From contig OZ024742.1 of NCBI GenBank assembly GCA_964016885.1, forward strand, positions 121,334,001 to 121,398,000: 64,000 bases of DNA, in the 5' to 3' direction. The stretch is from Eledone cirrhosa. Its lineage: Eukaryota. The position numbers were made by a program, and so were the translations under genes. The notes under the pieces are model-generated. The model saw nothing but the letters and a program-made list of their open reading frames with translations. It did not search any database and was not told where the DNA came from. Of the stretch, positions 7,998 through 45,805 are shown one piece after another (the first letter of the stretch is position 1; the number at the start of each line of letters is the position of its first letter).

Positions 7998-8090
<93 letters not shown>

Positions 8091-8323
8091 GAATAATCGA
8101 GTATCGGAAAATCAGCTCACGAGTTTACGATAAACAAATCCGACATGAGTGGCAGAGGGCTCAATAATTCAGATAAATCAGAGCTATAACTATCGTTAAA
8201 ATACCAACACACAAAGATTATGCCTAAAATCACCCATGCGGCCGAAAAATAACGACCAGGAAGATTCGGGTCACTCAGATAAAATATCAATAAATCAATA
8301 ATTCATATGAATGTAAAAAACTT

Positions 8324-8459
8324 ACCCGGACCCACTAGAAAGATGGTAAATCTAGCTTCTTGGGTTTCTGCAATTCCTTAATCCGCCCTCTATCAGCCCA
8401 CATAAAAAATATATAAGACTTCTAGAGAGCGGATGGACCGGAACACTTTATCAACGGGT
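8324..8459 (-). ncRNA. Type I hammerhead ribozyme with U3-A8 core and long stems II/III
   Basis: Minus strand: ACCCG-UUGAUAA-A-[GUG UUCC..AUCCGCUCUCUA / UAGAGGGCGGAU..GGAA UUGC]-A-GAAA-CCCA...UGGG-UC^CGGGU. Confidence 0.8.
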
Positions 8460-8641
8460 CTTGTCCAAACGAATAAAGAAGCTAACCCTAGCTGAGACGC
8501 ACATGGTGTCCAGCAAGGGAGATAACCTCTATATCCGCGAAAGATTTTCGGTAATGTGGGAAACCACATATCGAATAAGAGTGCTCAATAGACATATAAA
8601 TTCAAAATATTAACAAAAATAGACATTCGTGTGATCAAGTA

Positions 8642-8929: not shown

Positions 8930-10394
<1,465 letters not shown>

Positions 10395-36315: not shown

Positions 36316-36351
<36 letters not shown>

Positions 36352-36356
<5 letters not shown>

Positions 36357-37186
36357 TGAATTTAGCGAGAATCGCATTTCGGCGGGTAGGAATTAGCGAA
36401 ACGCAACTTCCAAATTGTGTTGACAAGCGCTCAATGGATATGAAGATACCAGAGCTATAAACATAAGTTAAAAAGGTCATACAAAACTGAGACGGTGGTT
36501 AAGAAGCCATTAACCACCTAAGCCAAAAAAGCGAACAAGCTAAACGGGTCAAACAAAATAAGATATGATTGAAATATTTACCCGGACCCTCGGGGAAGAT
36601 GGTATACTCCGATATAGGGTTTCTGCGACACCTAAATCAATAATACGGTCTGCTTATAACAAATAATAAGCTTTTGGTATAATGATCGAACAAGGATATC
36701 ACTTTCTCAACAGGCATTTTGTTCTGCGTGCGCCAGAGTCTCACAGCGTATGAAAGCACATGTGAGGTTCTAAGGGGAGAAAACTCCTAGTTTTGGCCGA
36801 TGAATTCAGTATGTAGTCATTGCAAAAATTTGCAAAAATAGCACAAAACGAATTAAGCTCTCAACCGAGTGGTTTTTAAAATAAACTTAAGCGATTAATC
36901 AGTCAATAGAATTAACTAAAAAAAATCAAAAAAATTAATTGGTTAATCGCTAGACTTGGAAGATTAATACAAATATGAATTTAGCGAGAATCGCATTTCG
37001 GCGGGTAGGAATTAGCGAAACGCAACTTCCGAATTGTGTTGACAAGCGTTCAATGGATACCAGAGCTATAAACATAAGTTAAAAAGGTCATACAAAACTG
37101 ACAACGATGGTTAAGAAGCCATTAACCACCTAAGCCAAAAAAGCGAACAAGCTAAACGGGTCAAACAAAATAAGATATGATTGAAA
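36352..37186 (-). mobile_element. Retrozyme-like non-coding element, about 1.35 tandem units of 619 bp
   Basis: Direct repeat 36352-36574 / 36971-37186; one HHR per unit; ends in (TA)n; homologous to 44360-45460. Confidence 0.7.
36581..36714 (-). ncRNA. Large type I hammerhead with U3-A8 core
   Basis: Minus strand: CCUG-UUGAGAA-A-GUGAUAUC...GGUGUCGC-A-GAAA-CCCU...AGGG-UC^CGGG. Confidence 0.8.
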
Positions 37187-37781
37187 CGGTCGAAACCGTT
37201 GAAAATTCTCGCAATAGAACAACTCTAATCCATAAATATGGATAAAATAACACCAAGTTACAATCCATTACTATAACAAACATTCAATACAGATATAACT
37301 TAACATATGTAATGGATGTGAAATCTGTAACTTTCATATTCTACACACATAACAAAATTTGAACTATACAAAAAAATCATCGCATTGCATCCCCCATAAT
37401 ACACTAACATATTCGCTTAAAGTGCTTGTATTTCATGTAATACCTTGCCATACAGTACTCATATATGCATGATATATTTGTTATTCCATTCCTTTATATA
37501 TGACTAACGCATGTACTATCTCTTTAATTTAATTATTGGACTATTCTCTTGTATTATCTGTCGCATGTATTCCACTCTTTGCTTTTAATTTTAATTTTAA
37601 TTTTAAATTTAAAATTTTAATTTTAATCTTAATTTGAATTATTGTACAATTCTCGTATAATATGTGTCGCATCCATTCCACCCTGTAAACATGAAACTGT
37701 TGTTCACAACATCAATATATATGTATCTGTATTATTCTTCAGTTGAATAGGAGGTTAATTACATGTACAAACATTAATAAT

Positions 37782-41958: not shown

Positions 41959-43414
41959 TGCCCAACGGGCATGAATCACAACCCACTTATAGCAGTGTAC
42001 AAAACAACAGTGTGGAAGCTACACGAAATAACACCTCAAACTGTAACTGTCACCATTGGCGAATAGATGCCTTGATTCGAGCCTAGTGAACATGTGTACG
42101 GTCAACTCAGACAACTCCACTTGGCATTACATTGGATCCACCGCGGGTACTTTTAAAAAAAGATGGTATGTGCACAGACACTCGATGAAAAACCGGGCAC
42201 TTATGGGTTCTACAACCCTCGCCAAAAAAATCTGGGAACTTAAGGACAATAACACCAACTACAATATCAACTGGTTGAGGTTGTCGGCTGCAAAGACCTA
42301 CAGTACCGGTATGTCCCACTGTAGGCTATGTGATCTAGAATTACTATATATCCTTAGAAATGTAAAAAGGCTACTCAACAACAAGTTAGAAAGATCAATA
42401 TTCTGCAGACACAGGATCGCCACTAAATTCACAAGATTTAAGCCTCCGTGAATCGAACCAAAGTAACTTAGCTTTCAACTTAGGATACCCACTATACTGC
42501 ACGAACCACCACAGAAGTATAATCATTAAGTACATTCTAGCCTTCTTAGTTCTATACCACAATAATGTCTGTAAGTACCTTATCAACCCATAAATATTTC
42601 TCTTCTCAGCTGCTGTCAACACAAGTCCCTCACCCTTGACTCTCAACAAATGAACCTAAATCCAAGAACATTTCAAAATACTACTACAGCAGAACTTTAC
42701 CTTCCTCCTGTTATAATTGTAGCCAGCATGTTTTCTCTTTATATATATATATATATGTATATATATATTGCCTCCTTAACCTCTGTATTAACTTGCCTAT
42801 TATATTGCTACTCTGTTAATGTTGTGTTATACATGTATGTTATTGATGATGAGAAAGCTAGACAACCCTTTCATCTAATATAGACCACACAAATATTGAA
42901 CCTAACACTACAAATATTACTACCCTCACTACAGTGACAAATTTCTCATCCGTCGGATAATAAATGATTCTTACGGCCACCAGACCTACATTGTTTAAAG
43001 CCACCGGCTTATCTTTACACTATATATAATACACTCCACGACAGCTTTTACATGTCAATTTTATACATCTGCCTCATGTCAGCTAGTTTTACACGCTAAA
43101 ATCGTAGATATACTATATTTCCCACCTAGATTGATGTGATTATTTAAAATAATTTATTGCTAGCATTGTTAGTATTGTTGTTGTTGTTCTGATTGAATGC
43201 CATTACTACTATATATAGTAGCCATGCCTGTATATTCCTTTCATTCTCACAAGCTCCGATGAATTAACTGGTTATAACTTTGTATTGGTGATCGAATAAC
43301 GTGAAAACAAGCGGGTGGCGATCTCTAGACCTACCAGTTCAGAGAAACAATTGTCAGCAATAAGATTAAAAGCCTTTTTTGTATAGCAAACCGTGTCACT
43401 CTTCTTTCCTGATT
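41959..43414 (+). mobile_element. 5'-truncated Penelope-like element; GIY-YIG ORF 42056-42451; 3' HHR at 43253-43358 (CCGAUGA core)
   Basis: WHYIGSTAGTFKKRWYVH...CRLCDLEL...LLNNKLERSIFCRHR; flanked by (TA)n. Confidence 0.88.
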
Positions 43415-44145: not shown

Positions 44146-44149
<4 letters not shown>

Positions 44150-44310
44150 AAGTATGACCCCGACGGCAGAGCTCAAGCCGTTTCGACGTCGAAACGGCTT
44201 GAGCTCTGCCGTCGGGGTCATACTTTTTCCTATTTCCCACTCTACTACCCTAAGTATTGAGTACTCTGGTGCGTTATGGTCCATTTGGTTCCTTACCACA
44301 ATTCCTTTGT

Positions 44311-44312: not shown

Positions 44313-44361
<49 letters not shown>

Positions 44362-44680
44362 AAAGCCAAAGCTTCGATTTTACTAAGCTTCCACTTGTAT
44401 TATTTTCTCCTAGCTTTAATAACTAACTAATTAATTTAATTAGACAATTCTGTTGATTGGTTAATTATTTGTGTTTTTTTAATAACATCTGGTTGAGAGC
44501 TTTTATTCGGAATGTTAGCGGAAATTATAATATTTCCCTTGTTAAAATTTGAATCTACCCGCCAAAAACCGGGGGTTGCTTCCTTTGTTGGAAATAACAC
44601 GTGACAACGAAGTGTTCGCTGGCTGCATACTTAGCGGCCGTATTTTGTTTGTTCACACCGCTTTGAGGCAGAACGGAATC

Positions 44681-44805
44681 CCTGTTGATGAAATGAATCC
44701 TCTGTTCGATCATGGAATACCACGAGCTTGCCTGTTATGTAAGTTGTATAAATGATTTCGGATTCATAGAAACACTTTAGACGTATATCGTTTGATTTGT
44801 CCAGG
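44681..44805 (+). ncRNA. Large type I hammerhead with U3-G8 core
   Basis: CCUG-UUGAUGA-A-AUGAAUCC...GGAUUCAU-A-GAAA-CA..UAGACG UAUAU CGUUUG..UG-UC^CAGG. Confidence 0.75.
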
Positions 44806-45113
44806 TGTATCTTTTAACCTGTTAGTTCTTTCGTTACTTTGGTATTGTGTGGTTGGGTTTTGCCTACCACAGTGTTCAATTTGTCAAGCTATTTAAACGT
44901 ATGTTGTTACTATAAGGACCTATCCTTATCGAGTGCTTTGCTAACTCATTCCTATTGTAGGTCGACCAAAGCCAAAGCTTCGATTTTACTAAGCTTCCAC
45001 TTGCATTATTTTCTCCTAGATTTAATAATTAACTAATTAATCTAATTAGACAATTCTGTTGATTGGTTAATTATTTGTGTTTGTTTAATAAAATCTGGTT
45101 GAGAGCTTTTATT

Positions 45114-45420
45114 CAATTCAATTCAATATATTTGGCAGAAATTAAAACATAGATGCTTCAGATGCTATGTAAGGGGGGAATTACACTGTCGGAAACACAG
45201 TGGTCCAACACCGGTCCAATTTCGCCTTGAATTGTTGCGTGGTTAACGCGTTGACTACTTCTTGACCACATCATCTGCAAATAGAAGCACGTTTCCACCA
45301 ATCACGTCCGGCATGTCGTTGATGTATAGAAGGAAGAGAATTGGGCCCAACACAGAGCCCTGGTGAACGCCGTTGCCTACACCCACCCCCGATGATAGAC
45401 TGCCATTGATCCGAACTCAC
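45114..45420 (-). mobile_element. CR1-type LINE RT fragment with (TTGAA)n tail
   Basis: [50 protein letters not shown]; absent from the first repeat unit. Confidence 0.85.
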
Positions 45421-45697
45421 AGAATGTTTGAGCGGAAATTATAATATTTCCCTTGGTTAACAAGCAGAAATTGAAAATTAGAATTGGTGCTCTGAAATAG
45501 CGATATAAATTGCATACAGTGTATTGCAAAATACACTATATATACATTCATATATATATCGCTATTTCAGAGCACCAATTCTAATTTTCAATTTCTGCTT
45601 GACCGGCAACCGCTCTGTATAATCAGTTCCTGATTATTACTGGAATTCTATAAGAATCAAACATTCATAATTTTCAGCAAACAGGCGGAGTAGTTAG

Positions 45698-45738
45698 CTT
45701 TGATAAGCACCAAAAAGTGCGAAACAGAGCTCTGTCAG
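45698..45738 (+). ncRNA. Compact hammerhead with U3-A8 core (family D)
   Basis: CU-UUGAUAA-GCAC CAAAAA GUGC-GAAA-CAGAGCUCUG-UC^AG. The copy at 24533-24560 has stem II GUAC/GUAC (covariation). Stem I is short. Confidence 0.65.
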
Positions 45739-45805
45739 AGACAGTGTATTGCAAAATACACTATATATACATTCATATATATATATCGCTATTTCAGAGC
45801 ACCAA

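What the first reader, a model, noticed from the sequence alone, without database searches (positions are those of the whole stretch)
36352..37186. Retrozyme-like ORF-less unit of about 610 nt with one large non-canonical hammerhead per unit
Seen: a 619-bp tandem period on the minus strand with a fully foldable type I HHR (36581-36714, core UUGAGAA). The array's 5' end (37186) corresponds to a point about 10 nt after the predicted cleavage site, and its 3' end joins (TA)n. A diverged homologue at 44360-45460 has a 606-bp period but starts and stops in a different phase. Known: metazoan non-LTR retrozymes are short tandem HHR repeats, usually a few hundred nt, processed to circular RNAs and thought to be mobilised by PLEs. 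Inference: phase-shifted, greater-than-unit-length copies fit reverse transcription of a self-cleaved or circular RNA of about 610 nt. This could be an unusually large, possibly undescribed retrozyme family using the resident PLE machinery.
Basis: partly seen in the sequence, partly recalled or inferred. Interest (0 to 1): 0.9.

Follow-up and report, generated by a model that had tools for sequence, protein, structure and literature searches.

The report
Penelope-type retrozyme with oversized hammerhead
This is one copy of a roughly 610-base, protein-free repeat that is scattered through the genome's TA microsatellites and folds into an unusually large, predicted self-cutting RNA (hammerhead); it likely borrows the enzymes of Penelope-like retrotransposons, and its copies often begin right at the predicted cut, a hint that the ribozyme helps define what gets copied.

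Summary
Real. 36352-37186(-) is 1.35 units of a 612-619 nt ORF-less repeat with a type I hammerhead fold (core UUGAGAA, ~80 nt helix II, 33 nt helix III). Two related families (44360-45460; 8085-8595) keep the fold with compensatory changes; Rfam misses it. Copies are not phase-shifted: 82 of 85 sampled copies share one homologous 3' end, 213-244 nt past the predicted cut, mostly running into (TA)n; 5' ends vary. Resident ORF-bearing Penelope-like elements (PLEs) have the same layout. 0 of 150 copies is joined to a PLE ORF, and no matching partner was found. 5' ends pile up at the predicted cut (stop rate 4.7-fold higher; first pass 32 of 85 versus 3 of 30 in an autonomous PLE family). Best reading: a non-autonomous PLE derivative (non-LTR retrozyme), copied by internally primed reverse transcription. 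Size is not unprecedented (published units 51-972 bp). Cleavage, expression and circles are untested; polymerase stalling could also explain the 5' pile-up.

The parts
36352..37186 (-). Family A element: one full unit plus a 220-nt second start, 5'-truncated at +11 after the predicted cut, fixed 3' end
36579..36716 (-). Large type I hammerhead fold: U3-A8 core UUGAGAA, extra A after A9 and before G12, ~80-nt helix II region, 33-nt helix III region, predicted cut 36585|36584
36318..36357 (.). (TA)n tract at the 3' junction, the likely insertion target
   Evidence: (TA)n at the 3' junction in 79 of 85 sampled copies
36880..36960 (-). AT-rich hairpin just downstream of the fixed 3'-end position within the unit, conserved in sequence across the three families; candidate protein-binding or priming signal (inference)
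   Evidence: fold; three-way alignment
44360..45114 (+). Family B copy (59% identical to A), 5'-truncated; hammerhead core UUGAUGA at 44685, predicted cut 44801|44802; passes the family's usual 3' end at about 45006
45115..45421 (-). LINE-type RT fragment inserted into the family B copy (not part of the element)
   Evidence: translation [17 protein letters not shown]...LFADD
45422..45460 (+). Last 39 nt of the family B copy after the insertion; normal 3' end missing
8085..8595 (-).

Best explanation
The element is a dispersed, protein-free ~610-nt repeat with a fixed 3' end in TA microsatellites and a conserved hammerhead fold, and it is likely a non-autonomous Penelope-like element (a non-LTR retrozyme) moved by the reverse transcriptase/endonuclease of resident PLEs. 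Shown: the repeat, three related families, the covarying fold, no ORF, fixed 3' end, variable 5' end, (TA)n junctions, and 5' ends enriched at the predicted cut. Inferred: a multi-unit transcript is cut by the hammerhead into ~610-nt monomers, some of which are ligated into circles; a PLE protein nicks (TA)n and primes reverse transcription internally, 213-244 nt past the cut; on a cut RNA it runs off at the cut and leaves a ~220-nt copy, trimmed to the nearest TA-like microhomology; on a ligated circle or an uncut multimer it runs on and leaves partial tandems such as this one.
For: Fixed 3' end within 6 nt in 26 of 27 A, 28 of 30 B, 28 of 28 C copies; (TA)n at the 3' junction in 79 of 85 and at the 5' junction in 58 of 85. 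Longest ATG ORF 41-62 aa. 0 of 150 elements has a same-strand PLE ORF joined upstream without a TA tract between (1.5-kb flanks, 7 PLE proteins as queries). Hammerhead helices across 12 sequences from 4 groups: 87.9% of cells paired, 7 of 18 pairs changed on both sides, slid controls 19-46%. A resident ORF-bearing PLE family (L181, 784 aa; RT-like MGSND/YRDD, Cys linker and GIY-like motifs; nearest Atlas clusters carry GIY-YIG/RVT_1 in part of their members) has the same layout: hammerhead with an 85-nt helix II region and a spare base on each side of it, then (TA)n 197 nt after the cut. 5' ends: 39 stops in 3,379 nt at risk within -12..+31 of the cut against 45 in 18,362 nt elsewhere (ratio 4.7; A 7.2, B 4.6, C 3.0) and 3 in 2,390 nt in the adjoining -55..-13; first pass 32 of 85 against 3 of 30 for the autonomous family (Fisher p 0.005). 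Internal priming downstream of the hammerhead is shown in vitro for an anole PLE (PMC11167929). The two units of one locus are more alike than units of different loci in A (0.944 vs 0.913, 25 pairs) and C (0.989 vs 0.975, 10 pairs).
Against: No autonomous partner with matching ends was found (profile and covariance-model scans of the held PLE and random loci), so the mobiliser is inferred from layout only. The -12..+31 window was chosen after seeing the ends, so p-values are optimistic; samples are the 30 best-scoring of 1,811-2,723 candidates and exclude copies shorter than the query. None of the 39 clustered ends starts at +1..+3, and 4 start 6-9 nt before the cut, which needs an uncut or religated template and fits stalling as well. 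Family B has U3.G8 rather than a Watson-Crick 3-8 pair in the plain register, its hammerhead is not the minimum-energy fold (z -0.8 and -0.7), and its intra-locus identity equals inter-locus (0.951 vs 0.949, 5 pairs). The covariation rests on only 3-4 independent lineages. In the anole PLE, hammerhead mutants transposed normally in vitro and no RNA-seq reads ended at the cut. In the 2026 preprint 8 of 9 predicted retrozymes did not cleave in vitro.
Confidence: 0.72

Rival explanations
1. Non-autonomous PLE derivative copied from uncut, linear multi-unit transcripts of a few master loci; the hammerhead is slow or idle and 5' ends cluster because reverse transcriptase stalls at the folded junction. 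No circle is involved.
For: 4 of 39 clustered ends start upstream of the cut and none at +1..+3; many copies run through an intact hammerhead; hammerhead not needed in vitro for the anole PLE; 2-unit-plus loci exist that could be masters (L005, L066).
Against: The autonomous family has an equally long helix II yet only 3 of 30 ends at its cut; core nucleotides and GUC are kept across families 48-59% identical; long arrays were not seen (longest about 2.3 units among the loci).
Confidence: 0.15
2. The repeats are solo or tandem pseudo-LTRs of a rare or extinct autonomous PLE family, not a separately replicating RNA.
For: Same layout as the pLTR of resident PLEs; most PLE insertions are 5'-truncated (preprint); only a small share of the copies was inspected.
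Against: 0 of 150 joined to an ORF (95% upper bound 2%), whereas at least 7 of 30 copies of the autonomous family, sampled the same way, ran 1,400 nt upstream into the ORF. Copies close on themselves head to tail with a 604-619-nt period and no ORF between, including young family C.
Confidence: 0.08
3. Mobilised by another non-LTR element (LINE) or spread by DNA-level amplification, with a chance hammerhead-like fold.
For: The genome holds many LINE fragments (one sits inside the B copy); no partner is identified.
Against: Covarying three-helix fold with invariant core; the motif scanner found 0 hits in 3 shuffles of 520 kb; fixed internal 3' end with unique flanks on many contigs; no poly(A) tail.
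Confidence: 0.05

Closest known systems
Metazoan non-LTR retrozymes (Cervera and de la Pena 2020, PMC7229834; read parts 2-4 of 6 of the text)
   Same: ORF-less head-to-tail repeats, one type I hammerhead per unit, GC below 50%, coexistence with PLEs, proposed circle-templated copying by PLE or LINE enzymes.
   Different: Unit 604-619 nt against 150-450 bp; hammerhead much larger with U3 core; copies mostly shorter than two units and dispersed in (TA)n; circles and cleavage are shown there, untested here.
Non-LTR retrozymes as non-autonomous PLE sequences (Li, Clavereau, Pollet 2026, bioRxiv 10.64898/2026.07.22.740005; read parts 1-3 of 5; supplements closed)
   Same: Same proposed origin from PLE pLTRs; consensus lengths 51-972 bp cover this unit.
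   Different: 35 genomes (31 vertebrates, 3 insects, 1 coral), canonical/minimal descriptors and a two-hammerhead rule that the window's copy fails; no analysis of copy ends in the parts read; there 24 of 57 Xenopus families match annotated elements, here no partner was found.
PLE hammerheads (Cervera and de la Pena 2014, PMC4209133; read parts 1-2 of 4)
   Same: U3-A8 covariant core (Schistosoma Cercyon PLE), spare base between 9 and 10.1, 7-8 bp helix II; large helix III as in fungal and protist PLEs that cleave as monomers.
   Different: Metazoan PLE motifs there have a minimal palindromic helix III and need dimers; here helix III spans 27-34 nt and is not palindromic, helix II spans about 80 nt, and a spare A precedes G12.
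Non-autonomous Chlamys elements such as MRC1, and microsatellite-targeting Neptune/Naiad PLEs (Craig et al. 2021, PMC8557442; passages seen)
   Same: Non-autonomous PLEs with pLTRs and head-to-tail insertions; microsatellite targets that hide target-site duplications.
   Different: Those mostly lack hammerheads and resemble an autonomous family at the 3' end; that match was not found here.
Poseidon PLE of Anolis, in vitro (Frangieh et al. 2024, PMC11167929; read parts 1-2 of 4)
   Same: Reverse transcription starts internally, downstream of the hammerhead cut, at AT-rich DNA, giving a fixed genomic 3' end.
   Different: Autonomous; hammerhead is protein-assisted and dispensable in vitro, with no reads ending at the cut; here genomic 5' ends cluster at the cut.

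Membership tests
Non-LTR retrozyme | Type I hammerhead fold in each unit | tested here: met
   non-canonical, no Rfam match; weakest in family B
Non-LTR retrozyme | Head-to-tail tandem copies | tested here: met
   periods 604-623 nt; up to about 2.3 units; no long arrays seen
Non-LTR retrozyme | No protein coding; GC below 50% | tested here: met
   longest ATG ORF 41-62 aa; GC 37%
Non-LTR retrozyme | Unit length | tested here: inconclusive
   outside 150-450 bp, inside 51-972 bp
Non-LTR retrozyme | At least two complete hammerheads in tandem (preprint's 'active' rule) | tested here: inconclusive
   not met by the window's copy (one); met at L005, L019, L022 and L066, L068
Non-LTR retrozyme | Self-cleavage of the RNA | not testable with these tools
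   only indirect: 5' ends cluster at the predicted cut
Non-LTR retrozyme | Expression as unit-length linear and circular RNA | not testable with these tools
   needs RNA data or a Northern blot
Non-LTR retrozyme | No PBS or PPT; target-site duplication when present | not tested
   junctions lie in (TA)n, so duplications cannot be read
Non-autonomous Penelope-like element | Fixed 3' end, variable 5' truncation, partial tandem | tested here: met
   82 of 85
Non-autonomous Penelope-like element | Microsatellite target shared with resident PLEs | tested here: met
   79 of 85; autonomous family ends in TA-type tracts too
Non-autonomous Penelope-like element | Hammerhead about 200 nt upstream of the 3' end, as in resident ORF-bearing PLEs | tested here: met
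   +230, +213, +244 against +197
Non-autonomous Penelope-like element | Sequence similarity to the 3' end of an autonomous family | tested here: inconclusive
   none in the PLE families held; the genome has 39,000-63,000 PLE-protein candidates per query, of which few families were read
Ordinary pLTR of an autonomous PLE | Physically joined to an RT + GIY-YIG ORF | tested here: not met
   0 of 150 elements

The most novel reading that the evidence does not exclude
[quoted passage not shown] That would be direct genomic evidence for the circle model of retrozyme and PLE copying, with a young family (C) and intact PLE ORFs in the same genome to reconstitute it.
Probability: 0.35. Interest if true: 0.72.

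Novelty: new variant of a known kind. Interest (0 to 1): 0.5.

Why it matters
What the hammerhead does in Penelope-like elements is open: PMC8557442 calls its function unclear, and PMC11167929 found it dispensable in vitro. Here copy ends point to the cut site in three diverged families and much less in an autonomous family with a dimer-type hammerhead, which gives a testable in vivo handle. The fold also lies outside Rfam's models and outside short-helix descriptors, so such families are likely undercounted. The class of element itself is known.

Tried and rejected
Rfam: no hammerhead family among the 150 listed of 208 matches at E up to 1 in the window, none in 36340-37200 at E up to 10. Phase-shift argument rejected. 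Search for the autonomous partner: three PLE-protein searches, 8 ORF-bearing regions and 52 evenly spaced regions, tblastn of held ORFs against the units (best E 0.047), nhmmer and a covariance model on 69 sources found none; a whole-genome search with the model was not available. Expression: no RNA holder listed; two runs of unrecorded kind, kept as contigs, were laid and say nothing on RNA; they showed TA loose ends at 36967, the first unit's equivalent of the fixed 3' end. Pfam did not recognise three of four long PLE ORFs and the PDB sequence search gave nothing, so the Neptune-like label rests on motifs and recall, not on a tree. Circular folding is only moderately better than shuffles (z -1.8, -4.1, -3.4 with 15 shuffles; 56-65% paired), not viroid-like. 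Intra-locus identity cannot separate a circle from a uniform multimer. A possible shared CTCCTA-like word just after the 3'-end position in family B and two autonomous families was seen by eye and not tested. Literature: 7 full-text searches showed no description of this family or of 5' ends clustering at PLE hammerhead cuts; Repbase and Dfam could not be searched, subscription papers are missing, and supplements of the preprint and of PMC8557442 and PMC7229834 were not seen and may list such families. The host species is not established; 'octopus' in three searches was a guess from genome size and microsatellites.

Full report
Observation. The minus strand of 36352-37186 holds one unit and the first 220 nt of a second, 94% identical. 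The period is 612 nt at the start and 619 nt after an 8-nt indel. A type I hammerhead fold spans 36716-36579 and is the minimum-energy structure of that piece (7 of 200 shuffles as good). The core reads UUGAGAA (U3-A8), with a spare A after A9, an 8-bp helix II base closing about 80 nt, a spare A before GAAA, a 33-nt helix III region and GUC at 36587-36585. The element starts at +11 after the predicted cut and ends in (TA)n. Rfam has no matching hammerhead model.

Families. The window lies at G000:C3:121334001-121398000 of a 3.0-Gb genome. Units are 48-59% identical pairwise. Genome searches gave 4,719, 3,380 and 2,550 candidates, of which 40 were scored each; these are not copy numbers. Of 52 evenly spaced 10-kb regions on the four largest contigs, 3 held a related piece, or roughly 17,000 genome-wide (95% range 3,600-50,000). 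Family C is young: its 40 best matches to a 181-nt query are 99-100% identical. The longest ATG ORF in any unit is 41-62 aa.

The fold is conserved. In 12 sequences from four groups (A, B, C and a C-like copy, L205), 87.9% of 214 cells pair, 7 of 18 pairs change on both sides, and slid controls give 19-46%. Only 3-4 lineages are independent, and the structure was drawn from family A. Family C folds into the hammerhead with z -3.29. Family B keeps helix II, but its best fold is not the hammerhead, and its core is UUGAUGA, with U3.G8 unless position 7 holds two bases. U3-A8, the spare base after A9 and a 7-8 bp helix II are published traits of PLE hammerheads; a large helix III is reported for fungal and protist PLE hammerheads, one of which cleaves as a monomer (PMC4209133).

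Ends. Short queries just downstream of the cut gave 90 loci, 85 after removing 5 duplicates. The 3' end is fixed and homologous: +230 in A (26 of 27), +213 in B (28 of 30), +244 in C (28 of 28), with (TA)n after it in 79 of 85. So copies are not phase-shifted. The window's B copy is an exception: it is 5'-truncated, split by a LINE RT fragment and lacks its normal end. 5' ends vary but pile up around the predicted cut: 39 stops in 3,379 nt at risk within -12..+31, against 45 in 18,362 nt elsewhere and 3 in 2,390 nt in the adjoining -55..-13; one copy ending at an assembly gap was censored. The pile-up recurs one and two units further upstream. The window was chosen after seeing the data, and the samples favour copies close to the window's own. 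None of the 39 starts at +1..+3, and 4 start 6-9 nt before the cut.

Resident PLEs. Protein searches gave 39,000-63,000 candidates each, many with open frames of 780-790 aa. One such family (L181) has RT-like, Cys-linker and GIY-like motifs, and its nearest Atlas clusters partly carry GIY-YIG or RVT_1. Pfam itself missed it. 'Neptune-like' is my inference from the linker and the TA target (PMC8557442), not from a tree. Its 3' region has the same layout as the finding: a hammerhead with an 85-nt helix II region and spare bases on both sides, then (TA)n 197 nt after the cut. Its helix III is short (6 nt). In contrast, 0 of 150 A-C elements has a same-strand PLE ORF joined upstream without a TA tract between. 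No autonomous family with matching ends was found.

Mechanism. Shown: repeat, fold, ends, target, absence of ORF. From the literature: an anole PLE primes reverse transcription internally, downstream of its hammerhead cut, at AT-rich DNA (PMC11167929); animal retrozymes self-cleave and are circularised, likely by RtcB (PMC7229834). Inferred: multi-unit transcripts are cut into ~610-nt monomers, a PLE protein primes at +213 to +244 in a (TA)n nick, run-off at a cut end gives the common ~220-nt copies, and circles or uncut multimers give the partial tandems. The two units of one locus are more alike than units of different loci in A and C but not in B. This fits one template but cannot tell a circle from a uniform multimer. 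The chief rival is stalling at the folded, uncut hammerhead. Against cleavage in vivo, the anole hammerhead was dispensable and no reads ended at its cut, and 8 of 9 predicted frog retrozymes did not cleave.

Standing. It works like a non-LTR retrozyme and passes the sequence-level tests; the RNA-level tests could not be run. The size is within the 51-972 bp of the 2026 preprint, which already proposes that such repeats are non-autonomous PLE derivatives. New here are the hammerhead architecture and the 5'-end footprint, which seven paper searches did not show in print; repeat databases and several supplements were not seen. The scan held no note on this genome or sequence and one on a similar TA-targeted repeat elsewhere, which I did not check. 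Verdict: new variant of a known kind, interest 0.5.

Noticed in passing
L189-L240 (52 evenly spaced 10-kb regions of G000): A relaxed scanner finds 52 PLE-type hammerhead motifs in 21 of 52 regions and 0 in each of 3 shuffles; 11 are one array. Extrapolated, 240,000-300,000 per genome, above the 126,247 reported for axolotl (different descriptor). 12 of 52 have a helix II region of 45 nt or more.
   Followed up: partly
L223:281-3381 (-): Array of at least 11 copies of a 310-bp unit, each with a CUGAUGA hammerhead: a classic retrozyme-type array.
   Followed up: no
L227:6638-9636 (+): Three 528-bp tandem units, each with a hammerhead (50-nt helix II region, palindromic loop III), just upstream of a GIY-YIG/RT ORF.
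   Followed up: no
window 30617 (+), 41724 (-), 41736 (+): Hammerhead motifs with a 116-nt helix II region; the pair at 41.7 kb is an inverted repeat that gives false miRNA hits in Rfam.
   Followed up: no
window 8700 (-), 22831, 25616, 26118, 40947, 41216, 53532: Further short PLE-type hammerheads, several in inverted pairs and near (TA)n.
   Followed up: no
window 45690-45745 (+): A small hammerhead-like motif with a U3-A8 core and palindromic helix III, seen by eye; a similar motif lies upstream of a PLE ORF in L195.
   Followed up: no
window 33301-34247, 42047-42448, 53740-54141, 9015-9278: 5'-truncated GIY-YIG ends of at least four PLE families; three have many near-identical, partly full-length relatives in the genome.
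   Followed up: partly
window 44146-44227 (+): Near-perfect 80-nt palindrome beside (TA)n; likely the inverted end of another element.
   Followed up: no
L311, L312, L303 (family of window 33301-33684): No hammerhead core seen by eye in 1.1 kb after the ORF, although the 3' end runs into TA about 1.1 kb on.
   Followed up: no
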